Assembly: GCA_019308905.1 (NCBI GenBank)
Contig: JAFDHF010000002.1
Span: 75,854-139,853, forward strand
Source: Deltaproteobacteria bacterium
GTDB taxonomy: Bacteria > Desulfobacterota > BSN033 > WVXP01
Direction: 5' to 3'
DNA: 64,000 nt
In this document: piece by piece, positions 38,091-50,598 of the stretch
Layout of the letters: each line of letters starts with the position of its first letter
Position numbering within the stretch: position 1 is the stretch's first letter
The notes under the pieces: generated by a model
Told to the model about the DNA's origin: nothing
Databases searched by the model: none
What the model saw: only the letters and a program-made list of their open reading frames with translations
Made by a program: the position numbers and the translations under genes

Positions 38091-39314
38091 ATGAGGAAGG
38101 GAATCTGCCTTATCACAGGATTGGTTTGGTGCCTTGGGACCGTTCTCATGGGGAATGTACCTCTCGGTGCGGCAGAGGTGATCAAAGTGGGGGCTCTTGT
38201 TCCTTACACCGGCGCTTACTCGAGCGATGGTGACGATATGCTGAAGGGTATCACCATGGGGGTTGACGAGATCAACGCCAGGGGAGGGATCCTGGGAAAG
38301 AAGATCAAGATCATCATCGGCGACACAGGGGAACTCGAACCGGACAAGATCGTTACAGCGGTGGAAAAGCTCGTGAACCGCGACAAGGTGAACGCCATAT
38401 TCACGGGTTACGCGGACACCGGATCGGACGTTACGGCTGTCGGAAAGTACGATATCCCCTATTTTCATGCCGACACAACCCACATTTCCCTGGATCTCGT
38501 GAAGGAGAATATCGACAAGTACTGGAATGTCTTCATGGTGGACGATGACGAAGGCATCTACGGCCCCTGGGTCTATGAGGCGGTCACCAAGACACTGGGA
38601 ATCGAGTTCCGAAACAAGAAAGTGGCAATAATCACCAACGACTACTCGTTCACCAAGTGGATTTCAGATGACTTCAGAAAAGCCCTGAAAGGAGGCGGAT
38701 GGGAGATCGTTGTCGACGAGTTCGTCCCCTTTGGGACGAGTGAGTGGGGATCCACTCTCGGGAAGATAAGGTCCAAAGATCCGTCCTGGATTCTTTTCAT
38801 CGATATGATGCCTGCCGAAGAGGCGAGCTTTATCCGGCAATTCACAGAGAAACCAATCAACGCTCACGTCTACATGATGTACGGTCCTTCGATTCCGGAA
38901 TTCTTGGAGCTAGCCGGGGAAGCGGCAAACGGGATTTTCTGGTGTACCCAGATAGCACCTCTTGTCCACACGGAAAAGGGTAAGAACTGGGCCAAGAGGT
39001 TTGAGAAAAAGTACGGCCGCTCTCCCGGATTCAGCACCTCTGCATTCACCTACGACGAGGTCTACATCTGGGCGCAAGCAGTCCAAAAGGTCGGAAACGA
39101 GAAGGACTACAGGGCTGTATGCAAAGCCGTTCTGGACGCCCCTTACGAGGGTATATGTGGAAAATATGTCTTTGATCCCAAGGACCAGCACGCCATGATT
39201 GCCGACGACAAGATTCCGGTCCATCTCTATCAGGTCCGGAACAGGCACCATGTGTTGACCGTCCTGGGTGATAGGGTGATGTCGCCCTACGTGACACCTC
39301 CTTGGTTCAAGTGA
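38091..39314 (+). CDS. ABC transporter substrate-binding protein, LivK / branched-chain-amino-acid (periplasmic binding protein type I) family
   Basis: Signal peptide, Peripla_BP_6-like architecture, and an AAAGGAGG ribosome-binding site. Start refined to the ATG at 38091. Confidence 0.85.
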   Translation: MRKGICLITGLVWCLGTVLMGNVPLGAAEVIKVGALVPYTGAYSSDGDDMLKGITMGVDEINARGGILGKKIKIIIGDTGELEPDKIVTAVEKLVNRDKVNAIFTGYADTGSDVTAVGKYDIPYFHADTTHISLDLVKENIDKYWNVFMVDDDEGIYGPWVYEAVTKTLGIEFRNKKVAIITNDYSFTKWISDDFRKALKGGGWEIVVDEFVPFGTSEWGSTLGKIRSKDPSWILFIDMMPAEEASFIRQFTEKPINAHVYMMYGPSIPEFLELAGEAANGIFWCTQIAPLVHTEKGKNWAKRFEKKYGRSPGFSTSAFTYDEVYIWAQAVQKVGNEKDYRAVCKAVLDAPYEGICGKYVFDPKDQHAMIADDKIPVHLYQVRNRHHVLTVLGDRVMSPYVTPPWFK

Positions 39315-39368
39315 GTTTCTGCCAAGCAGCAGGAGACGAGATTCTTCTTTGGGATCGGTTGTTGGCTG

Positions 39369-39407
39369 TTTTGCCCCGCCGGCGCTTGCTGCGCCGGCGG
39401 GGCAAAA
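39369..39407. other. 17-bp perfect GC-rich hairpin (ttttgccccgccggcgc-ttgct-gcgccggcggggcaaaa) after the LivK-like gene, with a T-tract on the 5' side and an A-tract on the 3' side
   Basis: Inverted repeat read directly from the sequence. It has no 3' U-tract in either orientation, so it is likely an mRNA-stabilising or processing hairpin rather than a canonical terminator. Confidence 0.5.
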
Positions 39408-39514
39408 AAACCACCCGGAAAGGATGAAATCCTGTTCTTCGTGACAGGGGCTCCGCTTCGGAAGATCCGAAGACACGGCCCACATAACCGGACAGCGTAT
39501 TTCATTGAACGGAG

Positions 39515-40231
39515 ATGTTGCTTTCAGCCAGAAACCTGAGTATGAGATTCGGGAACCTCCTCGCCCTGAACTCGGTCAGTTTCGACGTGGCCGAGGGTGA
39601 GGTGTTCGGAATCGCAGGGCCCAACGGTGCGGGCAAGACAACCCTTTTCAACGTCATCACAGGATTCTATCGAGGGACGGGCAAGATTCTCTTCGGCGGC
39701 GGGGAAATTCAGGGCCTTCAACCTCACCAGATCTGTCACCGCGGCATAGCGAGAACCTTTCAGCTTCCCAACATCTTCGCAAGCCTTACCGTCTATCAAA
39801 ACATCAGATTCGGAGCACACTTCGGCAACCCGGGAAGCCCGACCAAGGACAAGGAGATCGAGGAGATACTCGAGCTGACCGAGCTGGAAGAGAAGAGGGA
39901 TCTGCGTACGAGAAGCATCGATCTGTTCGCCAAGAAAAAAACAATGCTTGCCAGCGCCGTTGCGACAAAGCCGAAACTCCTTCTCCTGGATGAGCCGATC
40001 GGAGGGCTCAACCCTGACGAAATCGATCATTTTCTGAATCTGATTGGAAGAGTGAGAGTCGAACTCGGTGTTACCTTCATGATCATCGAGCATCTGATGG
40101 AGTACCTCATGGAGCTCTCCGATCGTCTGATGATCTTGGATTTTGGTGAAAAAATCTGTATCGGTACCCCTTCGACGGTTGCCAGAGACAAAAGAGTCGT
40201 GGAGGTCTATCTCGGGGAAGGGTCGGCCTGA
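39515..40231 (+). CDS. ABC transporter ATP-binding protein (LivG-like)
   Basis: Walker A (GPNGAGKTT), signature and Walker B motifs. Confidence 0.85.
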   Translation: MLLSARNLSMRFGNLLALNSVSFDVAEGEVFGIAGPNGAGKTTLFNVITGFYRGTGKILFGGGEIQGLQPHQICHRGIARTFQLPNIFASLTVYQNIRFGAHFGNPGSPTKDKEIEEILELTELEEKRDLRTRSIDLFAKKKTMLASAVATKPKLLLLDEPIGGLNPDEIDHFLNLIGRVRVELGVTFMIIEHLMEYLMELSDRLMILDFGEKICIGTPSTVARDKRVVEVYLGEGSA

Positions 40232-40944
40232 TGCTGCAGGTGACAAGGATAGACACCTACTATGATGAATTCAGGGTCCTCAAAGAGATTTCTCTATCTG
40301 TTTCGGAGGGAGATCTTGTTCTTGTGTTCGGCCCCAACGGCCACGGGAAGAGTACACTGCTGAAAACCATCTCGGGACTGATAAAGCCGTCAACCGGAAC
40401 GATCGAGTTCGATGGAAGAGAAATCCACCACCTCCCTATCGACCGGATCGTCGCGATGGGATTGGTCTATATTCCGGAAGAGAGACACCTGTTCACCGAA
40501 ATGACCGTGCTGGAAAACCTCAAACTCGGGGCATACAACCCGTCGGCCTGGCCGAAGCTGCAACAGAGTCTTGAATTCGTTTTCAACCTGTTCCCGAGGC
40601 TCGAAGAGAGGAAAAAGCAGATCGTCTCGACCCTGAGTGGAGGGGAATTGAGGATGCTTGCCATAGGCCGAGGGCTCATGGCGGGAGCCAAGTTTCTGGC
40701 GATAGACGAGCCGTCTCTGGGATTATCGCCGATCCTCACAAGAGAGGTCTTCCGCAAAATCGAAGAAATCAACAGGAACAACATCACCATCCTCCTGGTA
40801 GAGCAAAACATAAAGGAGACCGCTTACATGGCCCGCCGTGTCTATCTCATGGAGGACGGCCGCATTACTTTTGGCGGCACCAAGGAGGAGGCTCTTCTGA
40901 ATTCTAGAGTCAGGCAGGCGTTTTTGGGGAGAAAGAAGGCATAA
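40231..40944 (+). CDS. ABC transporter ATP-binding protein (LivF-like)
   Basis: Walker A (GPNGHGKST), LSGGE signature, and a 1-nt overlap with the upstream gene. Confidence 0.85.
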   Translation: MLQVTRIDTYYDEFRVLKEISLSVSEGDLVLVFGPNGHGKSTLLKTISGLIKPSTGTIEFDGREIHHLPIDRIVAMGLVYIPEERHLFTEMTVLENLKLGAYNPSAWPKLQQSLEFVFNLFPRLEERKKQIVSTLSGGELRMLAIGRGLMAGAKFLAIDEPSLGLSPILTREVFRKIEEINRNNITILLVEQNIKETAYMARRVYLMEDGRITFGGTKEEALLNSRVRQAFLGRKKA

Positions 40945-40946
40945 AA

Positions 40947-41816
40947 GTGACCAGTCTCTTCGTTGAATCTCTCATAAGCGGCATTACCCTCGGAGCCGTC
41001 TATGCCGTAATTGCCATGGGGCTTTGCCTCGTCTACGGAGTGTCGAAAATCTTCAATTTCTGCCACGGAACGATGTTCACCCTGGGCGCCTATTTCGCGT
41101 GGCTCTGCATCAACAGGTTCCATCTCAACTATGGACTGACCTTCCTCATCGTCCTTCCCGTGATGTTCGGAATCGGTCTGGCCCTTGAGCGAATCGTGAT
41201 CCATCCTCTCCGATGGAAATCCGACTGGCAATTCACGACCATTGTGGCGACCCTAGGAGTGGCCATTCTCTTGGAAAACATGATCCAGATAGTCTTTAAC
41301 CCGAGAACCAAGATGCTCCCCCCGATTCTCGAAGGGACGGCTGGAATCGGCGGGTATGTGATCAGCAGGCACGAAGTGATCATCTTTTTCGTGGCCATTT
41401 TGACCATCGTCCTGACACAGTTCTATCTCACCAAGGCCAAGACGGGAATGGCGGTTCGAGCTGTCTCGCAGGACACCGAAGGGGCACAGATCGTCGGAAT
41501 AAGGGTGGACCGTCTCTTCTCTTACACATTCGGCATTTCTGTGGTCATGGCGGCCATCGGCGGCATCCTGATGGCCCCAAAATTCTATATCACCCCCTCG
41601 GGAGGATGGGTACCACTGATCAAGGGATTCATCATCGTGTGTTTCGGAGGGCTTGGAAGCATCCCGGGAACCCTATACGCCGCATTCATATTGGGGATCT
41701 TCGAGGCCATGGTTTCGCTCTACATTGGACCTCTCTGGGTCTTTCCCTTTTGGACCCTTCTTTTCATTCTGATCCTCTCCTTCAAGCCGCGAGGGCTTTT
41801 GGGTGCATGGGGCTGA
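40947..41816 (+). CDS. branched-chain-amino-acid-type ABC permease (LivH-like)
   Basis: BPD_transp_2 membrane protein. GTG start. Confidence 0.85.
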   Translation: MTSLFVESLISGITLGAVYAVIAMGLCLVYGVSKIFNFCHGTMFTLGAYFAWLCINRFHLNYGLTFLIVLPVMFGIGLALERIVIHPLRWKSDWQFTTIVATLGVAILLENMIQIVFNPRTKMLPPILEGTAGIGGYVISRHEVIIFFVAILTIVLTQFYLTKAKTGMAVRAVSQDTEGAQIVGIRVDRLFSYTFGISVVMAAIGGILMAPKFYITPSGGWVPLIKGFIIVCFGGLGSIPGTLYAAFILGIFEAMVSLYIGPLWVFPFWTLLFILILSFKPRGLLGAWG

Positions 41817-42810
41817 GTTCATGACCGACCGCAAGAAGTACATCGCACCACTCTTTTTGCTGTTCTTCCTGCTGTTCCCCCTCTTCGTCCGGGACCGCTA
41901 TATCATTCATATCGTCATTCTGTGTTTCATATGGGGTGCGGTAGCCGAGTCATGGAATCTGATCATGGGATACGCGGGCATCTTTTCCCTCGGCCAAATC
42001 GGTTTTTTCGTGATCGGGGGCTATACCTCGGCCATGCTCTCCAAAGCCCTCGGCTTGTCCCCATGGCTGGGAATGCCGTCCGGCGGACTGCTGGCTGTCG
42101 CCGCAGGCCTGATAATCGGCCTCCCATGCCTCAGGCTCAAGGGTGTCTATATCGCCTTGCTCACACTGGCCTTTGCGGACTCTATTCCATACCTCATCAT
42201 TCTGACGGAGGGAATCGGGAGTGGAGGGTCGAGCGGTTTGCCGGGCATCCCTTCCCTGTCTCTCGGGGGCTTCGATTACGGGTTCGAAAAAATACCTTAC
42301 TACTACACGGCCCTCGTTCTATCCGGAATCTGTCTCTTGGTCATATACAAGGTGATCCGCTCGAACATCGGGCTGGGCTTCATGGGGCTCCGGGACTCGG
42401 AGGATTTTGCCAAGAGCCTGGGAATCAACGAGTATAAGTACAAGCTCCTCGTATTCGGAATCTCTGCTTTTCTAACGGGCATAATGGGGGCGTTCTACGG
42501 TCATTACGTTTCGTCCCTGGGTCCCAAGCTCCTTGGGCTAGATCTGTTTCTAACCGTTATCATGATGGTCGAGTTCGGTGGAACCGGACGCTTTCCAGGG
42601 GCCCTCCTCGGGGCGTTCATCATCACTCTGCTCAATGAATTCTTGAGGGCGTTCGGACTATACCGGCTCGTCATCTTGGGGGTCGTGGTTGTTTCATCCA
42701 TTATCTTCATGCCCGAAGGAGTGATCGGGTACGTCGACTACATCGGTCGAATCCGTGTTCTGGCCGGAGCAGGCAGAGCAAGACAGAAGGGCGACACGGA
42801 TAAGCTTTGA
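41803..42810 (+). CDS. branched-chain-amino-acid-type ABC permease (LivM-like)
   Basis: BPD_transp_2 membrane protein. An alternative start lies at 41821. Confidence 0.8.
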   Translation: MHGAEFMTDRKKYIAPLFLLFFLLFPLFVRDRYIIHIVILCFIWGAVAESWNLIMGYAGIFSLGQIGFFVIGGYTSAMLSKALGLSPWLGMPSGGLLAVAAGLIIGLPCLRLKGVYIALLTLAFADSIPYLIILTEGIGSGGSSGLPGIPSLSLGGFDYGFEKIPYYYTALVLSGICLLVIYKVIRSNIGLGFMGLRDSEDFAKSLGINEYKYKLLVFGISAFLTGIMGAFYGHYVSSLGPKLLGLDLFLTVIMMVEFGGTGRFPGALLGAFIITLLNEFLRAFGLYRLVILGVVVVSSIIFMPEGVIGYVDYIGRIRVLAGAGRARQKGDTDKL

Positions 42811-42859
42811 AGTGCCTCGTTTCCAGGCACCTGAAAGAGTATCGAACTCCGGGAGCCCT

Positions 42860-43714
42860 ATGGATACTTTCAAGTGGCCACAAGGTTACAATAGCGCCGC
42901 CACTTTCAGCTTCGATGTGGACGCCTCTGCCGAGGAGATGCTCCATCACGGAACCGTTTCCGGGGCCTACTCGGCCGGAAACTACGGCCCCAGGGCCGGT
43001 CTCCCCCGCATTCTCGACTTACTCGACGGGCTCGGTGTAAAGGCAACTTTCCATGTACCCGGCTGGGTCGCGGAAGTCTTCCCGAGGGAAATCAAGGAGG
43101 CCCACCAGAGGGGACATGAAATTGCAGCACACGGATACCTTCACGAGAATATCAGCCTTCTTGATTCCGACACAGAGAGGGAAATCCACAGGAAATCCCA
43201 CGGAATACTCGGCGATTTGACCGGTACCCCCCCTAGAGGCTTCAGAACACCCGGAGGTCCTTTGACTCCGAGGACCATCGAGATGCTCCTCGAGTTGGGT
43301 TATGATTATGACAGCAGCTCGTGCAGCGACTATTTCCCGTCATTGCTCACGGTGGGAGAGCACAGAGTCCGAATGGCTGAACTCCCCTGGTCATGGCTCC
43401 TCGACGATTTTCCCTTTTTCTGGGGAGGGGTGGACAGCGGCAATTTCGCTCCTATCAGCCTTCCAGACGATGCTCTGGAATACTGGATCGCCGAGTTCGA
43501 CAGTATCCACGAAATCGGCGGTCTCTGCGTGCTTGTCAATCATCCCCGCTGTATCGGCAGACCTTCGAGAATCCGTATCCTGAAGGAGTTCATCAATCAC
43601 GTCAAGGACACCCCCGGTGTCTGGCTCACCACCCAGGAAAGGGTCGCGGACTGGGTTTTGGGAAAGCATGAAACCGGTGACAAGCCCCTTGGAAGTCCGG
43701 GGAGTCGGCAATGA
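42860..43714 (+). CDS. polysaccharide deacetylase (NodB-homology / PuuE-allantoinase-like) family protein
   Basis: NodB motifs (TFSFDVD...HVPGW...HGYLHE). Start refined to the ATG at 42860. Confidence 0.75.
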   Translation: MDTFKWPQGYNSAATFSFDVDASAEEMLHHGTVSGAYSAGNYGPRAGLPRILDLLDGLGVKATFHVPGWVAEVFPREIKEAHQRGHEIAAHGYLHENISLLDSDTEREIHRKSHGILGDLTGTPPRGFRTPGGPLTPRTIEMLLELGYDYDSSSCSDYFPSLLTVGEHRVRMAELPWSWLLDDFPFFWGGVDSGNFAPISLPDDALEYWIAEFDSIHEIGGLCVLVNHPRCIGRPSRIRILKEFINHVKDTPGVWLTTQERVADWVLGKHETGDKPLGSPGSRQ

Positions 43715-44535
43715 GGTTTTCATGGCCAAAAGGGGAAACCTGTGCCGTTTTGCTGAGCTTCGAGTTTGATGCTGAAAGCGTGGAATGGGGATATAAGAGG
43801 ACCATTTCAGGGGCGGACGACATCGGCGGGTTTTCTCCGAAGTTCGGCATACCCCGAATCCTGGAAGTCCTCAACAAATACCGGATCAAGGCGACCTTCT
43901 TTGTTCCCGGGTGGGATGCCGAACGGTATCCCCGAAGTGTCCGAGAAATCGTAGAGGAAGGCCACGAGGTGGCGGCGCACGGCTACGTCCACGAGGACCT
44001 CTCCCGACTCGACGCGGGTGAAGAAACAGAAGTCTTTCGAAAAACCCATGACCTTCTGAGAGAAATAGCCGGAACCCCGCCTTGCGGGTTCAGGGCCGGA
44101 GCATACAACACGCCTCTGTCCCCCCATACACTTGCTATTCTGCAGAACCTCGATTATCTCTACGATAGCAGCTTCCTCGACCATGACCTGCCGTACCGTA
44201 TCTCTCTGGATGGCAAGACCACGAAACTGATTGAAATTCCTTGGAGTTGGCCCCTCAACGACATCGTTTTCGCCTCTCCCCCTATCTCCTGTGGCCTCGG
44301 GTATGTGCTTCCGCCCAGGACTCCCGGATGGATTCTCGAGTACTGGAAAGAAGAATTCGAAAGCCTTTTCACAGAAGTAGGGTTTTTCCACCTGGTAATG
44401 CATCCAAGAGACATGGGGAGAGGTTCTCGTATCCCTATTCTGGACGGGCTCCTTGATTTCATGAGGGGCCGGAGTATCTGGTTCGCCACCTGCAGGGAGC
44501 TTGCCGAGTGGTGCTCAGGGCAGTTGGAGACGTGA
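43711..44535 (+). CDS. polysaccharide deacetylase family protein, tandem paralog of the upstream gene
   Basis: Same motif set (LSFEFDAE...FFVPGW...HGYVHE). ATGA overlap with the upstream paralog. Confidence 0.75.
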   Translation: MRFSWPKGETCAVLLSFEFDAESVEWGYKRTISGADDIGGFSPKFGIPRILEVLNKYRIKATFFVPGWDAERYPRSVREIVEEGHEVAAHGYVHEDLSRLDAGEETEVFRKTHDLLREIAGTPPCGFRAGAYNTPLSPHTLAILQNLDYLYDSSFLDHDLPYRISLDGKTTKLIEIPWSWPLNDIVFASPPISCGLGYVLPPRTPGWILEYWKEEFESLFTEVGFFHLVMHPRDMGRGSRIPILDGLLDFMRGRSIWFATCRELAEWCSGQLET

Positions 44536-44684
44536 CAGCTAACCCTGGATGCGGCCCTGTGGCCTGTATCCCATGGGAGGCGGTGCCTCAGCGATTCAGA
44601 GAGACCCTCTCTCTTCACATTTCCCTTTTCCGGTGCTATACTGCACCCTGTTCCTGCCTGACGGAGTCACCGAAGGGGGAGGCC

Positions 44685-45977
44685 ATGCTTTCCGAAAAAG
44701 AGAAGAGTCTCCTGGGCCTCATCGACGAGAACAGGGACGGGATTGTTCGATATCTTAGAAAGCTCCTCGCCTTCAGGACAGTGACACCAGCACAGGGTCA
44801 AAGAGCCGAAACCGGCGACTTTCTGGAACATCAGCGGGTCGTCTCCGAGACACTGGAAGAAAGCGGATTCCGAGTCGAGACGTGGGAAATCGAACCCTCG
44901 AAACTCGAGCCGTTTCCGGGGGTATACATCGATCCAGAGAGAGATCTCAGCAACATGCCCGTTCTGGTGGGAAGGCTCCGTGGACAGGGAGGGGGCAGAT
45001 CCCTGATACTGAACGGCCATTACGACGTGGTACCCCCCGGTATCGTCGAAAACTGGAAGCATGACCCCTTTGGAGCGGAGATAGAAGACAACAGGATCTT
45101 CGGCCGCGGGTCCAGCGACATGAAAGGCGGCATCGCCGCCATGGTCCAGGCCCTGCGAATTATCCACACGTCGGGGATAAGACTAAATGGGGATGTCACC
45201 GTGGAGATCGTCCCGGACGAAGAGGCGACCAGCATGGGGACCCTGGCATGCTGCCAGAAGGGTTACAATGCCGACGGAGCCGTGATCCCCGAGCCTACGG
45301 ACATGAACGTGCTCATTGCCGTGCGCGGCAACCTGAGCGGTACCATCACGGTCTTCGGCAGGGCCGGCCATGCCGATATCAACCAGCCCCACTGGAAGGA
45401 AGGAGGGGCCGTCAACGCCATTTCAAAAGCCGCCAAGATCGTCCTCGCCCTCGAGGACCTCACGCGGGAGTGGAGAGACAGACCCGACAAGAGGCATCCC
45501 TACCTCGACCCGGATATCATCGTCCCCACGACAATCAGCGGCGGCAAGTGGGTTGTCTCTTATCCTGAGGAGGTCAAGATAGGATTCACCGCAGACTTCA
45601 ACTCGCCGGCCGCCAACCTCAGAGAAGAAATAGAGGCACAACTCAAGAGGGTGGCAGCAGCCGATTCCTGGATGAGGGAGCATCCGCCCCTCCTTGAGGC
45701 AGATCTCATGTACGGAGCGGAGATCGACAGAAACGAACCGATCGCAATGGCGGCCTTCACGACCCTCGAGGAACTCGGTTTCCAACCGCGGTTCTGCGGT
45801 TGGGGCACACTGACCGATGCCATCCACCTTGTGAACTATTCCAAGATCCCCACCGTCTCCATCGGGCCTGATGGAAGGACGGCCCATGAGACCGATGAAT
45901 ACCTCGACATAGAACAACTCACGGCTACGGCCAAGGCGCTGGCTCTTCTCATTCTGAGGTGGTGCGGATCGGAGTAA
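44685..45977 (+). CDS. M20-family metallo-amidohydrolase (ArgE/DapE/succinyl-diaminopimelate-desuccinylase-like)
   Basis: M20 metal-binding motifs (LNGHYDVVP, GRGSSDMKGG). Start refined to the ATG at 44685. Confidence 0.8.
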   Translation: MLSEKEKSLLGLIDENRDGIVRYLRKLLAFRTVTPAQGQRAETGDFLEHQRVVSETLEESGFRVETWEIEPSKLEPFPGVYIDPERDLSNMPVLVGRLRGQGGGRSLILNGHYDVVPPGIVENWKHDPFGAEIEDNRIFGRGSSDMKGGIAAMVQALRIIHTSGIRLNGDVTVEIVPDEEATSMGTLACCQKGYNADGAVIPEPTDMNVLIAVRGNLSGTITVFGRAGHADINQPHWKEGGAVNAISKAAKIVLALEDLTREWRDRPDKRHPYLDPDIIVPTTISGGKWVVSYPEEVKIGFTADFNSPAANLREEIEAQLKRVAAADSWMREHPPLLEADLMYGAEIDRNEPIAMAAFTTLEELGFQPRFCGWGTLTDAIHLVNYSKIPTVSIGPDGRTAHETDEYLDIEQLTATAKALALLILRWCGSE

Positions 45978-46002
45978 ACAGAGCCCGTGCGGGAGAAGGA
46001 CG

Positions 46003-47247
46003 ATGAAAAAGGGCTTACGATATCGAACCAGGGAACTCTACCACCCGGAAAGGATCTCCATCTTCCCCATCGAAGAGTACACAAGCAGGATGACCAAGGT
46101 GAGGGAGGCCATGGCACGAGACAGGATAGATCTGTTGTACTGCTCCGCCCCCGAAAGCCTCTTCTACCTCACAGGTTACGAGAGCAGTTGGTATAGATCC
46201 GGAAGCCCCCGGGAGTGGCCGCCCCTGAGCGGGCTGGTCATCAAGCAGGATGTCGACGACCCGATCTTCTTCGAAATGGCGGAAGAGGAGGTTCTCGTGC
46301 GGACCACCTCCATAGTTGCCGATGTACGTATGCTGGATTTTGAATCCGCGGAGTACATAATCGACTTCGTGCTCAAGAGCCTCGACCACCAAGGGTGGCT
46401 CAGGGGAACGGTCGGTTTTGAGAAGTTGAGCTATCGCCCCCACCCTTACGCGAGCGGGCTCTTTCAGTCTGCCCTGGAAGAGCGGGGCCTGAGAGTCGTT
46501 GACGCCTCCCATATCGTCAGAGAGATACGGGCCGTCAAGTCCCCTCTCGAGATGGCCTACGTGCGGGTGGCCTCGAGAATCGCCGACATAGGCCTGAAGG
46601 CCGCTCTTGACCACGTATGCCCGGGCATGACCGAGATCGAGCTCCGCGCCGAGATCGACTATGCCTGTGCCAACGCGGGAGGAGAGAACCCCGGGCTTGC
46701 TACTTACGTCCACGGGGGACCAAAGAGCGCCGCCAACCACATGCTCGCCTCCCGGCGGATCATCAAGCCGGGCGACGTGGTGTACATCGATCTTTGCGGG
46801 GTCTATCACCGCTACCATGCGGACGTGGCACGGACCCTATGCCTGGGGGAACCAGACTCCGCAGTGGCCAGACAGGTCGAACTCTCTGCAAAGGCCTGGC
46901 CTCTCCTATTGGAAACCATAAGGCCGAACCTGCCATTTGCCGAGCTGACCAAGACCATGCGGGCCTATTATGAAGAGGCCGGAATCTGGGAAGACCGATG
47001 GTGGGTCGGCGGCTATGACCTCGGCATTGCCTTTCCACCGGACTGGGTGGGCGTCTTTTCATACGATCCGGAAACAGATCCCGGTGAGTGGGCCATGGTC
47101 CCGGGCACCGTGGTCAACTACGAGTCGGACTTCTACCTGCCCAAAGGTGCGGGCATGTCGGCCATCATGGATACCATAGCCGTCGGAGAGGACAAGGCGG
47201 AGATACTGAGCACGATCCCCCAGGAGCTCATCGTCGTGGAAGAATGA
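46003..47247 (+). CDS. M24-family metallopeptidase with creatinase/prolidase N-terminal domain (Xaa-Pro aminopeptidase / creatinase-like)
   Basis: Creatinase_N-like N-terminus followed by the M24 pita-bread fold (HGGPKSAANH...). Confidence 0.8.
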   Translation: MKKGLRYRTRELYHPERISIFPIEEYTSRMTKVREAMARDRIDLLYCSAPESLFYLTGYESSWYRSGSPREWPPLSGLVIKQDVDDPIFFEMAEEEVLVRTTSIVADVRMLDFESAEYIIDFVLKSLDHQGWLRGTVGFEKLSYRPHPYASGLFQSALEERGLRVVDASHIVREIRAVKSPLEMAYVRVASRIADIGLKAALDHVCPGMTEIELRAEIDYACANAGGENPGLATYVHGGPKSAANHMLASRRIIKPGDVVYIDLCGVYHRYHADVARTLCLGEPDSAVARQVELSAKAWPLLLETIRPNLPFAELTKTMRAYYEEAGIWEDRWWVGGYDLGIAFPPDWVGVFSYDPETDPGEWAMVPGTVVNYESDFYLPKGAGMSAIMDTIAVGEDKAEILSTIPQELIVVEE

Positions 47248-47262
47248 AAGGAATCCCAGGTC

Positions 47263-48567
47263 ATGGCAAAGGCAGCCTGGAGCAGTGGTTTCTATCCTTT
47301 CCCTTTTTGGGCCATGGACCAGAAGATCTGGTACAGGTACGTCCAGGCCCTGCGGGGAGATGACCGCAGGAATCTGTCGAGTTATCCTTTCAAGTGGGCC
47401 TATGTGCCACCTGACAGTCCGGAAGAGGCGGTGGAATTCCTCAACGATACGGGAACGGAAATAGATCTGGTGAGTGCAGACTCGGTCCTCGGCAAGCTGG
47501 AGAACATGCTCGATTTCGAAGGGATGAGGCGCCAGGGGCTGGTGGAATGGAGAGATGCGAGGACCGGCGAGGAGCCGGCAGACGGTTTTCGAATGATCGC
47601 GGAATGGGAACCCATGGCCGGTGTGCTTCTCAACTGGCCGATCTTCTACCCCCCTCTCTGGGATACTTTCCATCAGATTATCGCCGCCCTGGACCACACA
47701 ACAACCTTCCTCAGGATCCCCGAGGGTTACCTGGGAGCGGCCGTGCTGGCCTGGCTCGAAGCAAAAGGAATCGACCTCGACCGTGTCCGTCCCATCCCCG
47801 GTCCGGTGGGCGACATCTGGGCGAGGGACTACTCGCCGATATACGGGGTGAGCGGTTACAGCGGCAGGGGGGTCGCCCACAAGTTCTCCTTTGCCGCATT
47901 CTATCCGGACTACAGGATCACCTGCCGCCCGATCGTGGAGATAGATGACAGATTCGCCTGGACAGGGGGATTCACCCTCCGTCGCTCGACGATCCTGCTC
48001 GATGGGGGGAGCCTCATCACGAACGGACAGGGAACTTACGTGGTCACCCGAAGGGTACTGAAGGACAACTCGGCACTCCCGAATCTCCTGGCCCAGCTCG
48101 AGCACTGGCTGGGTGCGCGGCGGATGATCGTCATCGATGAAGAGCCCGGGGACCAGATCGGGCACATAAACTCTCTCAAGTTCATCGGTCCGAGCACGAT
48201 CCTCGTGGGAAGGCCCGACAGGGAGAACTCTCCGATTTCAAAATACTACGCCGCTGTTGCCGGCCTCCTCGAACGGGAAGGTTTTGAAATCGTAGACATC
48301 CCCTATCCGGCCGGTCTGTCCCGTCCCCTGCCCGATGGGGAAAAGAGCGCCCACGGCCTTTACGCGAACTGTCTCATGATAAACCGCCGCCTCCTGGTGG
48401 CCCGGTTCGGAAGCGACGACTATGACGCCCGGGCTCTCGAGGTGTACCGCAAGGCCCTGCCCGACTACGAGATATTCGACATCGACTGCTCGGTTCTCGC
48501 AAATGGCGGTGGCGCCATAAACTGCAGTACCAAAGAGATCCCCGATGCATCGAAGGCGAGTCGATAG
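47263..48567 (+). CDS. agmatine deiminase / Porphyromonas-type peptidyl-arginine deiminase family protein with an N-terminal extension of about 110 aa
   Basis: Guanidino-group-modifying motifs (AEWEP...WP, GDIWARDYSP, LDGGS...GQGT, GHINSL, C-terminal GGGAINCSTKEIP with the catalytic Cys). Confidence 0.7.
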   Translation: MAKAAWSSGFYPFPFWAMDQKIWYRYVQALRGDDRRNLSSYPFKWAYVPPDSPEEAVEFLNDTGTEIDLVSADSVLGKLENMLDFEGMRRQGLVEWRDARTGEEPADGFRMIAEWEPMAGVLLNWPIFYPPLWDTFHQIIAALDHTTTFLRIPEGYLGAAVLAWLEAKGIDLDRVRPIPGPVGDIWARDYSPIYGVSGYSGRGVAHKFSFAAFYPDYRITCRPIVEIDDRFAWTGGFTLRRSTILLDGGSLITNGQGTYVVTRRVLKDNSALPNLLAQLEHWLGARRMIVIDEEPGDQIGHINSLKFIGPSTILVGRPDRENSPISKYYAAVAGLLEREGFEIVDIPYPAGLSRPLPDGEKSAHGLYANCLMINRRLLVARFGSDDYDARALEVYRKALPDYEIFDIDCSVLANGGGAINCSTKEIPDASKASR

Positions 48568-48679
48568 GAGATGCAGCTGAGGCCGATGAGTGTTCTTCTG
48601 CGAGAAAGACGCGGCCGTAAGGTCGACAAGTTCCGGGAATCCTTGACCGAGAACCTGGAAAACCAGGGTCTCTTTTGTC

Positions 48680-48708
48680 TTGACAAAAGACATCCCCTAT
48701 CTTATAAG
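48680..48708 (+). promoter_or_regulatory. strong sigma70-like promoter (TTGACA, 17 nt spacer, TATAAG) followed by a leader of about 190 nt before the APC permease gene
   Basis: Hexamers read directly from the sequence: TTGACA 48680-48685 and TATAAG 48703-48708. Confidence 0.5.
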
Positions 48709-48896
48709 CTTTACTCTGTCTCATGTGGTATTTTGAAAGAATGCATGGGTTTCAAAAGAGGGTATCTGCTGGAACCCAACAAGGGGTTGTGAGGGCAGTC
48801 AAATCACAAAAGGGAAAGGAGGTGGAATCTCTAGGGATCTGACCCTTGTCGGTAGAGATATCCAAAAAGGGAAAAACAGAGGAAGGAGGGAAAGAA

Positions 48897-50504
48897 ATGG
48901 CGAAAGAAGGAGTGGTATTTGCAAGAAAGGCCAGTGGGTTGACAAGAGAAGCGGGGCTTCTCGATACCACCTACTTCGGCATAATGAACAATGCCGTTCC
49001 TATCAGCATATGGTTTGTCCTGATGGCGTTCTACTGGCTTCCCGGGGCGAGTCTCACCCTTGCATGCCTGCTCGCCCTCGCAATGGTCGTCTTCGGTTTC
49101 GCCTCGGTCTGGGGTATCCTCGGGGGTTCCATGCCGCGAAGCGGAGGCAGCTACGTCTACAACTCGCGGATCATCCATCCGGTCATCGGCCTCGGCGTCA
49201 GTTTTGCCAATGCCGGCTTCGTCATGCTCTCCTGGATATGGGTGCTCGCTCCATGGGTGGGGGAGGTCGGCTTCCCCATCATGGCGGGCTGCCTGGGGAT
49301 CCCCCTCGAGTCCGTTGAACCCTTTACCTCCGGGTGGGGTCTCTACGCGGTGGCGACTATTGTCAATGTCACAGCCTTTGTTGTGGTCATGTCCGGGATG
49401 AGGACCTACTTCAGAATCCAGAAGATCTTTGTCACCTGGTCTCTCATCGGGGCTGCCATTGCAGGTATCATAATTACGGCTACCTCCAACAAGGAGTTCG
49501 TGCAGGTCTGGAATAACCTTGCGGCCAAGATGGGATCGCTGGATTGGAATACCACCGTGGCTGCCGCCACAAAGGAGATCGGGGAGATACCGGATACCTG
49601 GAATTGGAAATCGACGATCGGGATGATGCTGCCGGTGAGCTGGGTAGCCATATACGGCTATATCATCACCTTCATCGGCGGCGAGATCAAAAGCCCCAGG
49701 AAGAACATCTTCACGGCCCAGATCCTCAATGCCGTCATCTGTATCGGTTTTCTCCTCTGGGTTGGGCTGGCTTTCAAGAGCATGACCGGCTGGAAGGGAC
49801 TCCATGCGATCTCGTTCCTGAGCGACACGGAGAACACATTGAACGGGTACACGTTCCCGTTTCACACGACCTATATCAACGTGGCCTCCATGCTTGTGAA
49901 CTTCAATGTCGTGCTTGGGATCATCATGGCCGGCGCCTTCATGGTGGCTGACTGGCTCTGGATCGCTTTCTCCTACATCGCCTGGAGCCGGGCGGCCTTT
50001 GCGTGGGGCATGGACGGGCTCGGACCTAAATGGTTCACCGACATCTCTCCCAAGTACGGCCAGCCGGTGAAGCTGCTGCTCGCCATGTTCATCGCGGCCC
50101 AGATAGCCCTGACAGAGTACGCCTTCAACCCCGAGGTTCTCGCCTCCATCTCAGTGGAGGTAGTCCAGCTCGGATCGGTCTTCGGCGTGACCTGTCTCGC
50201 CTGTCTGATATTCCCCTATGTGGGGAAGACTTCCCACATCTGGAACGCATCGCCTTACAAGAACTGGCGCATTGCAGGTATCCCCTATGCAACCATCGCC
50301 GGCATCATCGGGTTGGCTCTGGTGGTGATGATGGTGTACGCTTACTATATCACCGAGGAGTTCGCCTTCATGCACAACATCTGGACACTGATCTACGGGA
50401 TCGTGTGGGCCATAGGGATCACATGGTATTTCGTCTGGAAGAACAAGAGGGCTAAAGAGGGCATCGACGTGACCCTCGCCTTCACCGAGATACCGCCTGA
50501 GTAA
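48897..50504 (+). CDS. APC-superfamily amino acid/polyamine/organocation permease
   Basis: About 12 transmembrane segments and an APC-type N-terminal region. Start refined to the ATG at 48897, which has a GGAAGGAGGG ribosome-binding site. Confidence 0.85.
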   Translation: MAKEGVVFARKASGLTREAGLLDTTYFGIMNNAVPISIWFVLMAFYWLPGASLTLACLLALAMVVFGFASVWGILGGSMPRSGGSYVYNSRIIHPVIGLGVSFANAGFVMLSWIWVLAPWVGEVGFPIMAGCLGIPLESVEPFTSGWGLYAVATIVNVTAFVVVMSGMRTYFRIQKIFVTWSLIGAAIAGIIITATSNKEFVQVWNNLAAKMGSLDWNTTVAAATKEIGEIPDTWNWKSTIGMMLPVSWVAIYGYIITFIGGEIKSPRKNIFTAQILNAVICIGFLLWVGLAFKSMTGWKGLHAISFLSDTENTLNGYTFPFHTTYINVASMLVNFNVVLGIIMAGAFMVADWLWIAFSYIAWSRAAFAWGMDGLGPKWFTDISPKYGQPVKLLLAMFIAAQIALTEYAFNPEVLASISVEVVQLGSVFGVTCLACLIFPYVGKTSHIWNASPYKNWRIAGIPYATIAGIIGLALVVMMVYAYYITEEFAFMHNIWTLIYGIVWAIGITWYFVWKNKRAKEGIDVTLAFTEIPPE

Positions 50505-50566: not shown

Positions 50567-50598
50567 AAAACCTAAACGAGACAGGAAGGAGCCGGTTT

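What the first reader, a model, noticed from the sequence alone, without database searches (positions are those of the whole stretch)
38091..50504. Amide/guanidino-compound catabolic cluster: Liv-type importer, two tandem NodB-fold deacetylase paralogs, M20, creatinase-type M24, N-terminally extended agmatine-deiminase-like enzyme, APC permease
Five consecutive hydrolases that act on C-N bonds (amide, peptide, guanidino) sit between two uptake systems. Creatinase-type M24 enzymes and agmatine-deiminase/PAD enzymes both attack guanidino or amidino groups. The polysaccharide-deacetylase fold includes PuuE allantoinase. The deiminase homolog carries an extra N-terminal domain of about 110 aa that is not part of canonical AguA. 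The arrangement suggests degradation of a guanidino-containing or ureido-containing osmolyte or peptide, such as creatine, guanidinoacetate or arginine-containing dipeptides. Its products (sarcosine and methylamines) could feed the downstream methyltransferase module.
Basis: inference. Interest (0 to 1): 0.5.

Follow-up and report, generated by a model that had tools for sequence, protein, structure and literature searches.

The report
Mosaic nitrogen-compound hydrolase gene cluster
The run of five C-N hydrolase genes between transporters is real, but it is a patchwork of four independently travelling gene modules in an uncultured anaerobic sediment bacterium; the unusual part is a rare, uncharacterised relative of agmatine deiminase with an extra helical N-terminal domain and an altered catalytic triad.

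Summary
Comparative genomics across 114 related loci shows no conserved seven-gene block. There are four modules. (1) A Liv-type ABC importer coupled to a tandem NodB pair, which recurs elsewhere with other partners. (2) An M20 deacylase plus an M24 hydrolase whose nearest solved relative is ectoine hydrolase DoeA, not creatinase. (3) A PAD-like gene that is absent at this position in the nearest relative (L007). Elsewhere it sits beside a bona fide AguB N-carbamoylputrescine amidase and a PotABCD-type importer. An ortholog of that importer lies 11 kb downstream and runs off the window. (4) An APC permease, a metallophosphoesterase and two orphan genes, which travel with the M24. The PAD-like family has about 78 sequence clusters, all from metagenomes or MAGs. 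It keeps the Cys, the His, one guanidine-binding Asp and both distal-amine-binding Asps. The triad Asp is Asn, Cys or Gly in all 67 members whose motif could be read. Its 109-residue helical N-domain is family-specific. It coexists with canonical AguA, so it is a distinct paralog, probably acting on agmatine or an analog. The substrate is unresolved; creatine is not supported specifically.

The parts
37987..38015 (+). sigma-70-like promoter candidate upstream of the binding-protein gene
   Evidence: TTGACA-17-TATCTT. This is a consensus match only; the number of such sites in the region is not above the shuffled controls.
38091..39314 (+). Periplasmic substrate-binding protein of a Liv/Urt-type ABC importer
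   Evidence: PF13458, 191 bits. Best NCBIfam hits are urea SBPs at 94/85 bits, far below the ~495 cutoffs. Best PDB match is 3h5l, an uncharacterised BCAA-type SBP. ATG at 38091 preceded by GGAGGGG.
39515..42810 (+). Two ABC ATPases (39515-40231, 40231-40944) and two permeases (40947-41816, 41803-42810) of the same importer
   Evidence: PF00005, PF12399 and PF02653. Genes overlap or are 2 bp apart.
42857..43714 (+). NodB-fold amidohydrolase 1 (FDVD, HGYLH motifs)
   Evidence: PF01522, 70.8 bits. PuuE model scores 72 bits against a 424.6 cutoff. Orthologs (57-59%) lie directly upstream of NodB2 orthologs in L110-L112. Motifs.
43711..44535 (+). NodB-fold amidohydrolase 2 (FEFD, HGYVH motifs), a paralog of NodB1 with a 4-bp overlap
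   Evidence: PF01522, 70 bits. 41% identical to NodB1. Best PDB match is 3rxz at E 1.5e-43, then HpPgdA and PuuE. The pair is conserved in L110-L114.
44614..44642 (+). sigma-70-like promoter candidate in the 149-bp gap before the M20 gene
   Evidence: TTCACA-17-TATACT with an upstream TG. Consensus match only.
44685..45977 (+). M20 ArgE/DapE-family deacylase with the M20 metal-binding sequence motifs
   Evidence: TIGR01910 scores 246.6 against a 217.6 cutoff. The motifs HYDVVP, GRGSSDMKGG, PDEE, PEPT and AHETDE align with 3pfo. Assignment of these motifs to individual metal ligands is from memory of the family, not from a tool. Orthologs (57-70%) are adjacent to the M24 in L007, L012, L062, L067 and L072, and adjacent to the PAD-like gene in L099.
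46003..47247 (+). M24 'pita-bread' hydrolase of the DoeA/creatinase branch; the peptidase dinuclear metal site is not intact
   Evidence: PF00557 and PF01321. Best PDB match is ectoine hydrolase 6twj/6twk at E 1e-30; creatinase scores 2e-8. NF038259 scores 161 against a 575 cutoff. Ligand positions: D263; D/N274; D/E339 (His in prolidase); E374; M/I389 (Glu in prolidase).
47263..48567 (+). PAD_porph (agmatine-deiminase-like) protein of a rare family with an altered triad (C421, H301, N303)
   Evidence: PF04371, 128.8 bits, residues 110-427. TIGR03380 scores 58 against a 382 cutoff. The family has 78 clusters. Motif census. AF2 model pLDDT 84; Foldseek top hits are AguA/PPAD structures.
47263..47589 (+). 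Family-specific helical N-terminal domain (residues 1-109) of the PAD-like protein
   Evidence: Conserved in all full-length homologs. No Pfam hit. Only 18 representatives among 1.84 billion, mostly short N-terminal fragments, plus full-length member P0060 and one weak (E 8e-5) hit in a 4179-aa protein. Six short helices. No PDB fold match.
48654..48708 (+). Terminator-like hairpin (48654-48667 plus T-tract) followed by a promoter-like TTGACA-17-TATAAG (48680-48708), in the gap between the PAD-like gene and the permease
   Evidence: Hairpin. Promoter-like hexamers read directly from the sequence. Consensus matches only.
48897..50504 (+). Divergent APC-superfamily permease
   Evidence: PF00324, 39 bits. 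No PDB sequence match. Orthologs (70-84%) follow the M24 in L007, L008 and L025; a 29% homolog does so in L017.
50542..53155 (+). Metallophosphoesterase (50542-51582) and two orphan proteins (51601-52443; 52484-53155, membrane) that travel with the permease and the M24
   Evidence: PF00149, 30 bits; the two others have no Pfam or NCBIfam family. Co-linear orthologs in L007, L008 and L025, and partly in L017.
53417..54718 (+). Class-III aminotransferase heading the Pyl-methyltransferase block; a likely downstream step for amines
   Evidence: PF00202. NF041362 (GntE) scores 550.5 against a 525 cutoff. Orthologs (67-91%) lie next to the M24 module (L007) and next to PAD-like/AguB modules (L001, L003).
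59862..64000 (+). PotABCD-type importer (two permeases, SBP 61923-63056, and a PotA ATPase that starts after 63056 and runs off the window end); the usual partner of the PAD-like family
   Evidence: Pfam. PotD model scores 119 bits. PotA reading frame. 55-73% identical (by subunit) to the transporter immediately upstream of PAD-like-AguB in L001, L003, L092 and L094; PotA and the permeases also match in L105, and PotA in L102.
25569..37525 (-). Divergent upstream operon(s): GABA aminotransferase, AFOR, lactamase-like HydA/HydB, saccharopine-dehydrogenase-like protein, AFOR and ferredoxin. Linked by synteny to the M24 and the NodB pair elsewhere.
   Evidence: Pfam and NCBIfam. L014 has SacDH-SacDH-M24-GABA-AT(50%)-AFOR(56%). 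L110-L112 have SacDH-NodB1-NodB2.

Best explanation
The region is a physically contiguous but evolutionarily composite stretch of a nitrogen-compound catabolic island. The host is an uncultured, pyrrolysine-using deltaproteobacterium. It is not one dedicated seven-gene pathway. Four units are likely.

**TU1.** A Liv/Urt-type ABC importer is tightly packed with a co-inherited pair of NodB-fold paralogs (46 bp after the last permease; the two NodB genes overlap by 4 bp). The pair is probably a heteromeric, metal-dependent amidohydrolase acting on an imported small amide.

**TU2.** M20-M24-PAD-like. The M24 lacks the peptidase dinuclear site and belongs to the ectoine-hydrolase/creatinase branch. 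It probably cleaves an amidine or guanidine C-N bond of a small carboxylate-bearing solute. The M20, with its metal-binding motifs intact, removes the resulting (or a preceding) N-acyl or N-carbamoyl group. The PAD-like enzyme uses Cys421/His301 to deiminate the guanidino group of agmatine or a close cationic analog to the N-carbamoyl amine. That product is normally finished by an AguB amidase, which is not in the window and may lie just past its end. Here the M20 may do that step instead.

**TU3.** An APC permease with a metallophosphoesterase and two orphan proteins. This is the usual companion of the M24 and presumably its uptake system.

**TU4 and onward.** An aminotransferase and Pyl-dependent methyltransferases. 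Together with AFOR and GABA aminotransferase upstream, they would take the released amines on to aldehydes and acids.

**Shown:** gene content, the catalytic residue inventory, and the modular synteny. **Inferred:** substrates, the heteromer, the transcription units, and the flow between modules.
For: - **Families and residues:**
- **PAD-like and AguB.** A CN_hydrolase lies within ~2 kb of the PAD-like gene in 11 of 11 distinct informative loci. The L001 example passes the AguB equivalog cutoff, 458 against 410.
- **PAD-like and PotABCD.** A PotABCD ortholog lies directly upstream of PAD-like-AguB in L001, L003, L092, L094, L102 and L105. It is 55-73% identical (by subunit) to window genes 59862->64000.
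- **Closest relative.** L007 has M20-M24-[444 bp]-APC-... with no PAD-like gene, and its upstream gene is not a NodB.
- **M24 companions.** M24-APC-MPE-U280-U223 recurs in L007, L008 and L025, and partly in L017. An M20 is adjacent to the M24 in L007, L012, L062, L067 and L072. M20-PAD-like are adjacent in L099.
- **NodB pair.** NodB1-NodB2 orthologs occur in L110-L114 with SacDH, a C45 acyltransferase-family protein, M19 or TRAP partners.
- **Distinct paralog.** Canonical AguA genes coexist with the PAD-like gene in L099 and L101.
- **Substrate-binding residues.** The equivalents of MtAIH Asp220 and Asp89, which bind the distal amine, are invariant here (D297, D184), as is the guanidine-binding equivalent D189 (PMC6447857, read).
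- **Unit boundaries.** Gaps, GC content and promoter/terminator-like sites coincide with the module borders.
Against: - M20, M24 and PAD-like are only 25 and 15 bp apart and share composition (GC 0.58-0.595).
- Same-strand adjacency of all four units may still reflect a common regulon.
- Promoter and terminator calls are consensus matches whose counts do not clearly exceed the shuffled controls: promoters do not, and terminators do by less than two SD.
- The loci were gathered with the M24, PAD-like and NodB2 proteins as queries, so the frequency of M20 adjacency is conditioned on those queries.
- Only a handful of close relatives exist (>=57% M24 identity: 8 loci).
- Loss of the triad Asp could mean the PAD-like enzyme is not a deiminase at all.
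- No substrate has been tested.
Confidence: 0.55

Rival explanations
1. This is a single dedicated pathway for one guanidino or ureido osmolyte such as creatine or guanidinoacetate. The importer brings it in, and the five hydrolases act in sequence. The resulting sarcosine and methylamines feed the methyltransferases.
For: - All genes are on one strand and closely spaced.
- The M24 has a Creatinase_N domain, and its peptidase metal site is degraded.
- MttB-family, corrinoid, GCV_T and flavin amine-oxidoreductase genes lie next to PAD-like genes in L099 and other loci.
- Hydantoinase-type genes are present in the window.
Against: - The block is not conserved in any of 114 loci; the modules recombine freely.
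- The closest relative lacks the PAD-like, NodB and Liv genes.
- Creatinase is a distant match (E 2e-8 against 1e-30 for DoeA).
- The hydantoinase subunits are closest to caprolactamase.
- The PAD-like family's usual partner is a true N-carbamoylputrescine amidase with a polyamine-type importer.
Confidence: 0.12
2. The M20-M24 core is an anaerobic analog of the ectoine (cyclic amidine) degradation route. The M24 opens the ring as DoeA/EutD does. The M20 replaces DoeB/EutE as the N-acetyl-diaminobutyrate deacetylase. A class-III aminotransferase and AFOR replace DoeD and DoeC. On this reading the PAD-like and NodB genes are unrelated neighbours.
For: - DoeA is the best solved and the best NCBIfam match, and it shares the GY.[IL]GI..PPDW motif.
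- M20-M24 pairing recurs.
- In L014 the M24 is flanked by an aminotransferase and an AFOR.
- The ectoine-route step names (DoeB, DoeD, DoeC) and the notion of a saline source habitat come from my own knowledge; no tool result addresses either.
Against: - Scores are far below the DoeA cutoffs (161 against 575 and 129 against 613).
- E374, invariant in this family, aligns with Met in DoeA. D263 aligns with Glu, and D/E339 with Pro.
- No AstE/AspA-type deacetylase and no EutABC or EnuR genes are present.
- The adjacent aminotransferase in L014 is a GABA-AT equivalog, not a DABA-AT.
Confidence: 0.15
3. The M20 and M24 are ordinary dipeptidase and prolidase enzymes, and the cluster serves peptide or amino-acid scavenging.
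For: The Pfam names Peptidase_M20 and Peptidase_M24. P. furiosus prolidase is the second-best PDB match at E 7.5e-27. Liv-type and APC importers are classic amino-acid systems.
Against: The prolidase His ligand is Asp/Glu, one Glu ligand is Met/Ile, and the second Asp is Asn in half of the family. The M20 passes the ArgE/DapE deacylase model, not a dipeptidase model. The SBP and the permease match no characterised amino-acid system.
Confidence: 0.08
4. The PAD-like family is not an ammonia-releasing deiminase. It is a DDAH-like (di)methylaminohydrolase acting on N-methylated agmatine-type guanidines. It would release methylamine or dimethylamine for the neighbouring Pyl-dependent methyltransferases and leave N-carbamoylputrescine for AguB.
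For: - In MtAIH the triad Asp contacts the leaving nitrogen (PMC6447857). In this family it is replaced by Asn, Cys or Gly in 67 of 67 readable members, while the distal-amine-binding Asps are kept.
- The family sits among MttB, MtbB and corrinoid genes in L001, L003, L092, L094, L099 and the window.
- It coexists with canonical AguA.
Against: This rests purely on inference from one residue and on guilt by association in genomes that are rich in MttB paralogs. No natural pool of methylated agmatine is known to me. There is no structural evidence for a pocket that would hold methyl groups.
Confidence: 0.08

Closest known systems
Agmatine deiminase / N-carbamoylputrescine amidase pathway (AguA-AguB; PF04371, TIGR03380, TIGR03381)
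   Same: The pentein fold has top structural matches 1xkn, C. jejuni, plant and E. faecalis AguA, and PPAD. The Cys nucleophile, the His, the first guanidine-binding Asp and both distal-amine Asps are conserved. In other genomes the gene sits next to a true AguB and a polyamine-type ABC importer.
   Different: It has an extra 109-residue helical N-domain. The triad Asp (HxD) is Asn, Cys or Gly throughout the family. The His before the Cys is Asn or Tyr in most members. It scores 58 bits against the 382 equivalog cutoff. It coexists with canonical AguA as a separate paralog. In this window it follows M20-M24 and has no AguB nearby.
Neofunctionalised AIH homologs such as diagmatine iminohydrolase (J Biol Chem 2026, PMC13625781)
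   Same: This is a precedent that AguA-family paralogs specialise on other guanidino-polyamines and still hand N-carbamoyl products to AguB-type amidases.
   Different: That paper lists its AIH enzymes at 332 and 368 aa and never uses the term 'N-terminal', so no extension is described there; I did not inspect their triad residues. They act in biosynthesis next to SpeY. Here the context is import and catabolism.
Ectoine hydrolase DoeA/EutD with deacetylase DoeB/EutE
   Same: It is the best solved relative of the M24 (6twj, 6twk, 6yo9, E 1e-30) and shares the GY..GI..PPDW segment that replaces the peptidase His-ligand motif. The hydrolase is paired with a deacylase gene.
   Different: The aligned segment is at low identity and falls far below the DoeA model cutoffs. 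The active-site positions differ (D263, D/E339 and E374 against E, P and M). The partner is an M20, not an AstE/AspA-type enzyme.
Creatinase (creatine amidinohydrolase, 1chm/7yto)
   Same: The Creatinase_N plus pita-bread architecture is shared. That creatinase itself is metal-independent is from my own knowledge, not from a tool.
   Different: It is only a distant sequence match (E 2e-8 and 1e-6). No creatinase-specific residues could be checked.
Extended NodB/CE4 subgroup: M. smegmatis 3rxz, H. pylori HpPgdA, PuuE allantoinase
   Same: Both NodB proteins align over their full length with 3rxz (E 1.5e-43) and partly with HpPgdA and PuuE. The HxxxH and acidic motif positions are kept.
   Different: The PuuE model scores 72 and 69 against a 424.6 cutoff. 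Here they are a co-inherited heterologous pair (FDVD and FE[FY]D lineages), and the substrate is unknown.

Membership tests
Canonical agmatine deiminase AguA | Matches the PAD_porph domain model (PF04371) | tested here: met
   128.8 bits against a 25 cutoff, residues 110-427.
Canonical agmatine deiminase AguA | Reaches the NCBIfam equivalog score (TIGR03380 / NF010070) | tested here: not met
   58.3 against 381.8, and 63.8 against 483. Canonical AguAs in L099 and L101 score 327-388 bits on PF04371, against 119-129 for this family.
Canonical agmatine deiminase AguA | Nucleophilic Cys and general acid/base His | tested here: met
   C421 (GGGAINCS) and H301 align with the Cys and His of 1xkn, 1zbr and 6nib. 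H301 is invariant and C421 nearly invariant.
Canonical agmatine deiminase AguA | Catalytic-triad, guanidine-binding Asp two residues after the His (HxD; Asp226 in MtAIH) | tested here: not met
   N303 in the window protein. Across 71 full-length members: Asn 53, Cys 12, Gly 2, Asp 0, and 4 not matched by the motif pattern. Role of Asp226 from PMC6447857.
Canonical agmatine deiminase AguA | Second guanidine-binding Asp and the distal-amine-binding Asps (Asp94, Asp220 and Asp89 in MtAIH) | tested here: met
   D189, D297 and D184 are invariant in the 22-sequence alignment.
Canonical agmatine deiminase AguA | Adjacent AguB (or putrescine carbamoyltransferase) to process N-carbamoylputrescine | tested here: not met
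   No CN_hydrolase in the 64-kb window (tblastn, E<=1e-3). It is present next to homologs in 11 of 11 informative loci. It may lie beyond the window end, after PotA.
Canonical agmatine deiminase AguA | Agmatine to N-carbamoylputrescine plus NH3 activity | not testable with these tools
   Needs an enzyme assay.
Creatinase | Close sequence relationship to characterised creatinases | tested here: not met
   7yto at E 2e-8 and 1chm at E 1e-6, ranked 31st or lower. DoeA and prolidases score far better.
Creatinase | Substrate-binding residues of creatinase | not tested
   No creatinase alignment could be displayed with the tools. My recollection of the residues was not used as evidence.
Ectoine hydrolase DoeA/EutD | Reaches the NCBIfam cutoffs (NF038259, TIGR02993) | tested here: not met
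   161.1 against 575, and 128.7 against 613.
Ectoine hydrolase DoeA/EutD | Partner DoeB/EutE-type deacetylase and EutABC/EnuR genes in the cluster | tested here: not met
   No such Pfam family among the window genes scanned. An M20 is the partner instead.
M24 metallopeptidase (prolidase / aminopeptidase P) | Five conserved ligands of the dinuclear metal centre (D, D, H, E, E) | tested here: not met
   D263 is kept. Position 274 is D in 11 and N in 13 of 25. The His position is D/E339. E374 is kept. The last Glu is M/I389.
ArgE/DapE-family M20 deacylase | NCBIfam subfamily cutoff, and the M20 metal-binding sequence motifs | tested here: met
   TIGR01910 scores 246.6 against 217.6. The HYDVVP, SSDMKGG, PDEE, PEPT and AHETDE motifs align with 3pfo. 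Mapping of these motifs to the metal ligands is from memory of the family.
PuuE allantoinase | Reaches the TIGR03212 equivalog-domain cutoff | tested here: not met
   72.0 (NodB1) and 69.4 (NodB2) against 424.6.
Urea (UrtA) or branched-chain amino-acid (LivJ) binding protein | Reaches the equivalog cutoffs | tested here: not met
   93.8 against 494.8, 85.1 against 492.75 and 68 against 477. Only the superfamily (PF13458) is met.
A single co-inherited catabolic operon (the proposed seven-gene block) | The block or most of it is conserved in related genomes | tested here: not met
   None of 83 M24 loci has a PAD-like gene; two have a weak, non-adjacent NodB match (L034 33%, L081 24%). No PAD-like locus has the M24. 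One of five distinct NodB-pair loci shares any other cluster gene type. The modules recombine.

The most novel reading that the evidence does not exclude
The N-extended PAD-like family, whose triad Asp is replaced by Asn, Cys or Gly, is a new pentein activity. On this reading it is a (di)methylaminohydrolase or otherwise modified-guanidine hydrolase acting on methylated or substituted agmatine-type compounds in anoxic sediments. It would release methylamines that feed the adjacent pyrrolysine-dependent methyltransferases, and it would pass the N-carbamoyl amine to AguB or to the M20. This would link guanidino-compound breakdown to methylamine-based energy metabolism.
Probability: 0.08. Interest if true: 0.75.

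Novelty: new variant of a known kind. Interest (0 to 1): 0.35.

Why it matters
The main result corrects a plausible over-reading: adjacency of five C-N hydrolases does not make a pathway, and this block is assembled from modules that move independently. Three leads are worth testing.

1. A rare AguA paralog found only in metagenomes and MAGs. It has an unrecognised N-terminal domain and lacks a residue counted among the conserved catalytic triad of guanidine-modifying enzymes (PMC6447857), yet it stays paired with AguB and a polyamine-type importer.
2. An uncharacterised M24 family in the ectoine-hydrolase/creatinase branch, paired with an M20 deacylase and a dedicated permease. It occurs across Deltaproteobacteria, Dehalococcoidia and Bathyarchaeia.
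3. A co-inherited NodB heteropair.

All three sit in islands that also carry pyrrolysine-dependent methylamine methyltransferases. They may therefore help explain how anaerobes in sediments recycle nitrogen-rich osmolytes and polyamines.

Tried and rejected
- **Exact-sequence look-ups.** Look-ups of the PAD-like protein and the PotD-like SBP, made to read beyond the window, found nothing on record. Whether AguB follows PotA is therefore unknown.
- **Riboswitches.** A Rfam scan of 37200-53500 at permissive E-values found no guanidine or other riboswitch.
- **The N-terminal domain.** A search of 1.84 billion representatives with the N-domain alone found only family members and fragments, apart from one weak (E 8e-5) hit in a 4179-aa protein. 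The isolated model had pLDDT 68.6 and gave no significant PDB fold match. There was no Pfam hit.
- **The two orphan proteins.** Relaxed Pfam searches found nothing meaningful.
- **The APC permease.** It has no sequence match in the PDB.
- **Literature.** Searches for the PAD-like family, for links between MttB and sarcosine/creatine, and for agmatine together with pyrrolysine found nothing relevant. The EutD structure paper is not held, and the ectoine-catabolism paper I searched in its place contained none of the active-site terms, so DoeA ligand-binding residues could not be compared.
- **Recent horizontal acquisition of the PAD-like gene.** Not supported by composition: its GC, GC3 and codon usage match M20 and M24. 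Insertion here and loss in L007 cannot be told apart.
- **Prolidase reading of the M24.** Rejected on the ligand inventory.
- **PuuE allantoinase reading of the NodB genes.** Rejected on model scores.

Full report
**Observation.**
- A Peripla_BP_6 binding protein at 38091-39314. Its ATG follows a GGAGGGG Shine-Dalgarno sequence.
- Two ABC ATPases and two BPD_transp_2 permeases, spanning 39515-42810.
- Two NodB-fold paralogs at 42857-43714 and 43711-44535, 41% identical to each other.
- An M20 ArgE/DapE-type deacylase at 44685-45977.
- An M24 protein with a Creatinase_N domain at 46003-47247.
- A 434-aa PAD_porph protein at 47263-48567, whose Pfam match begins at residue 110.
- A divergent APC permease at 48897-50504.

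The finding's right-hand border cuts a unit. Three further genes follow at 18-40 bp spacing: a metallophosphoesterase and two orphans, to 53155. Large minus-strand ORFs over the same DNA (for example 47059-48165) have no support, and I take them to be shadows of this GC-rich coding sequence.

**Source and setting.**
The PAD-like and NodB2 proteins are 100% identical to proteins of a 'MAG: Deltaproteobacteria bacterium' on a 168-kb contig. The window is a nitrogen-compound and corrinoid island.
- Downstream lie a class-III aminotransferase, Pyl-type mttB and mtbB with in-frame TAG codons and Rfam PYLIS elements, a corrinoid protein, a non-Pyl MttB homolog and a PotABCD-type importer.
- Upstream on the minus strand lie a ferredoxin, an AFOR, a saccharopine-dehydrogenase-like gene, lactamase-like HydA/HydB, a second AFOR, a GABA-aminotransferase equivalog, an acyl-CoA synthetase, an aldehyde dehydrogenase and corrinoid salvage genes behind cobalamin riboswitches.

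**Is it one cluster?**
I collected 114 related loci and compared them with the window proteins by tblastn and Pfam. They came from:
- exact-protein look-ups of PAD-like, M24 and NodB2 homologs;
- a scan of species-representative genomes with an M24 alignment;
- a metagenome scan with a PAD-like alignment.

The block is not conserved anywhere. Four modules recur independently.

(a) *The NodB pair.* NodB1 and NodB2 orthologs, in the same order, occur in L110-L112 after a saccharopine-dehydrogenase-like gene and before a C45 acyltransferase-family (AAT) gene. In L113/L114 they sit between an M19 dipeptidase with a TRAP transporter and an AAT with a glycyl-radical enzyme. The two lineages differ consistently in the first acidic motif, FDVD against FE[FY]D, and both keep HGYxH. 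Only in the window are they joined to a Liv-type importer: NodB1 starts 46 bp after the last permease, or overlaps it if the upstream GTG is used.

(b) *M20 and M24.* M20 orthologs at 57-70% identity lie directly beside the M24 in L007, L012, L062, L067 and L072.

(c) *M24 with the permease unit.* M24-APC-metallophosphoesterase-U280-U223 is co-linear in L007, L008 and L025 (a Dehalococcoidia MAG). It is partly present in L017, a Bathyarchaeia MAG.

(d) *The PAD-like gene.*
- It is next to a CN_hydrolase in 11 of 11 distinct informative loci. The L001 example passes the AguB equivalog cutoff, 458 against 410 bits.
- It usually follows a PotABCD-type importer.
- None of 83 M24 loci contains a PAD-like gene.
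- The closest relative, L007, is 73-77% identical at the DNA level over the aligned segments. It has M20-M24, then a 444-bp gap, then APC and the following genes through to the aminotransferase and Pyl-mttB. It has no PAD-like gene, and its upstream gene is not a NodB.
- The window has no CN_hydrolase. However, its own PotABCD-type genes (59862->64000) are 55-73% identical, by subunit, to the importer that directly precedes PAD-like-AguB in L001, L003, L092, L094, L102 and L105. The PotA gene runs off the window end, so an AguB may lie just beyond it.

**Transcription units.**
The gaps are 200 bp after the SBP, 149 bp before the M20, 326 bp after the PAD-like gene and 261 bp before the aminotransferase. 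These coincide with the module borders and with a GC step, 0.52-0.56 for Liv plus NodB against 0.58-0.595 for M20-M24-PAD-like. Consensus sites fall in the gaps:
- TTGACA-17-TATCTT before the SBP;
- TTCACA-17-TATACT before the M20;
- a hairpin with a T-tract, then TTGACA-17-TATAAG, between the PAD-like gene and the permease;
- a terminator-like hairpin after U223.

These are pattern matches whose overall number does not clearly exceed the shuffled controls (promoters 7 against 7.4; terminators 23 against 15.8, sd 4.2), so four units is an inference. Within the second unit the spacing is 25 and 15 bp, so M20, M24 and PAD-like are probably co-transcribed here. No riboswitch is present.

**The PAD-like protein.**
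Seventy-eight homolog clusters exist, all about 435 aa and all from metagenomes or MAGs. The AlphaFold model has pLDDT 84 and pTM 0.87. It shows a pentein domain whose best structural matches are 1xkn, C. jejuni, plant and E. faecalis agmatine deiminases, and PPAD. A six-helix N-terminal domain precedes it.

The N-domain has no Pfam family. It has no detectable fold relative. It occurs in only 18 of 1.84 billion representative proteins, mostly fragments of this family.

HMMER alignments to solved AguAs, read with the MtAIH structure paper (PMC6447857), give this residue map:

| MtAIH residue | Role | Window protein |
|---|---|---|
| Cys366 | nucleophile | C421 |
| His224 | general acid/base | H301 |
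| Asp94 | binds the guanidine | D189 |
| Asp220, Asp89 | bind the distal amine | D297, D184 |
| Asp226 | catalytic triad | N303 |

Of 71 full-length family members, the Asp226 position is Asn in 53, Cys in 12, Gly in 2 and Asp in none; 4 did not match the motif pattern. Canonical AguA genes in the same contigs read GHID.

Canonical AguA-AguB pairs coexist with the PAD-like gene in L099 and L101. The family is therefore a distinct paralog. I infer that its substrate resembles agmatine: a cationic distal amine, an AguB partner and a polyamine-type importer all point that way. Its chemistry at the leaving nitrogen is modified. Neofunctionalised AIH paralogs are known, for example diagmatine iminohydrolase (PMC13625781).

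**The M24 and M20.**
The best solved relative of the M24 is ectoine hydrolase DoeA (E 1e-30). Archaeal prolidases follow at 7.5e-27. Creatinases are far behind at 2e-8 and 1e-6. The M24 shares with DoeA the GY.[IL]GI..PPDW segment that replaces the peptidase GHGxG His-ligand motif.

Across 25 family members the five prolidase ligand positions read as follows:
- D263: Asp in 23 of 25.
- Position 274: Asp in 11, Asn in 13.
- Position 339 (His in prolidase): Asp or Glu in 25 of 25.
- E374: Glu in 25 of 25.
- Position 389 (Glu in prolidase): Met or Ile.

So it is not a dinuclear peptidase. It is not a DoeA ortholog either: it scores 161 against 575, and the DoeA residues at three of these positions are E, P and M. 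The M20 passes the ArgE/DapE deacylase model and aligns with 3pfo across the M20 metal-binding motifs.

The same M20 ortholog group is found beside the M24 in five loci and beside the PAD-like gene in L099. In the window it sits beside both. An amidinohydrolase-type M24 and a deiminase are two alternative ways to attack a guanidino or amidino group. In L014 an M24 ortholog (58%) lies between saccharopine-dehydrogenase-like genes and orthologs of the window's GABA aminotransferase and AFOR. That hints that the M24 product is an omega-amino acid or a related amine.

**Verdict.**
The genes are C-N hydrolases with a plausible amidine/guanidine focus in the M20-M24-PAD-like unit, and methyltransferase and aminotransferase neighbours do recur. 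But the seven-gene pathway, the creatinase assignment and the creatine or ureide substrates are not supported, and the flanking importers are not the PAD-like gene's usual partner.

My best explanation, at confidence about 0.55, is a composite island of four units, with the substrate classes inferred as described. The rivals are:
- a single creatine-type pathway (0.12);
- an ectoine-like route for M24-M20 (0.15);
- peptide scavenging (0.08);
- a DDAH-like methylamine-releasing role for the PAD-like family (0.08).

The cluster as a whole is ordinary. The PAD-like family is a new variant of a known enzyme kind, and the M24 family with its permease module is uncharacterised. Overall interest is 0.35.

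Noticed in passing
window 54743-56198 and 56255-57700: Both mttB and mtbB carry an in-frame TAG, at 55724-55726 and 57320-57322. Each TAG is followed immediately by an Rfam PYLIS element (PYLIS_3 at 82 bits, PYLIS_2 at 83 bits), and the MTTB Pfam match continues after the mttB TAG. So this deltaproteobacterial MAG decodes pyrrolysine.
   Followed up: partly
window 53417-54718: The class-III aminotransferase directly upstream of Pyl-mttB passes the NCBIfam equivalog cutoff for GntE, the guanitoxin-biosynthesis transaminase (550.5 against 525). It scores well above the HemL models. Orthologs at 67-91% identity sit in the same methyltransferase clusters in L001, L003 and L007. Why a GntE-like transaminase travels with TMA/DMA methyltransferases is unexplained.
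   Followed up: partly
window 48897-53155; L007, L008, L025, L017: The unit of APC permease, metallophosphoesterase, a 280-aa orphan and a 223-aa membrane orphan is co-linear in MAGs labelled Deltaproteobacteria and Dehalococcoidia. It is partly present in a Bathyarchaeia MAG, always next to the M24. The two orphans match no Pfam or NCBIfam family.
   Followed up: partly
window 59862-64000: A PotABCD-type importer has its PotA ATPase running off the window end. In six other loci its ortholog is followed directly by the PAD-like gene and AguB. The window may therefore stop just short of an AguB or a second PAD-like gene.
   Followed up: partly
window 25569-33861 (minus strand): Lactamase-like HydA/HydB (best match caprolactamase CapA/CapB, below cutoff) sit with an AFOR and a GABA-aminotransferase equivalog (557 against 507). 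This looks like a route from a lactam to an omega-amino acid, then a semialdehyde, then a diacid, using a tungsten/molybdenum AFOR in place of an NAD-dependent dehydrogenase.
   Followed up: no
window 11319-11493 (+) and 18443-18633 (-): Two cobalamin riboswitches. One precedes a TonB-dependent receptor (11727-13838). The other precedes a CobT-CobD-CbiZ-CobS corrinoid salvage and remodelling operon. This fits the heavy corrinoid demand of the methyltransferases.
   Followed up: no
window 4695-9129: A xanthine-dehydrogenase-family molybdoenzyme (FAD subunit 4695-5597, MoCo subunit 6064-8391) and a DUF169 protein are inserted between the permease genes and the ATPase genes of an Opp/Dpp-type ABC transporter.
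   Followed up: no
L101 1-16465 and L099 8122-13642: L101 carries three PAD_porph genes (two canonical ones of 346 and 348 aa, plus the N-extended type) and two AguB-like genes within 16 kb. It also has a NodB gene next to one canonical AguA. L099 has MTTB-M20-PAD-like facing a corrinoid gene and a canonical aguBA pair, with GCV_T and two flavin amine oxidoreductases upstream.
   Followed up: partly
L016 10001-15867: An Anaerolineaceae MAG carries four tandem M24 paralogs of this family (38-51% identity to the window protein). This suggests diversification of substrate range within the family.
   Followed up: no
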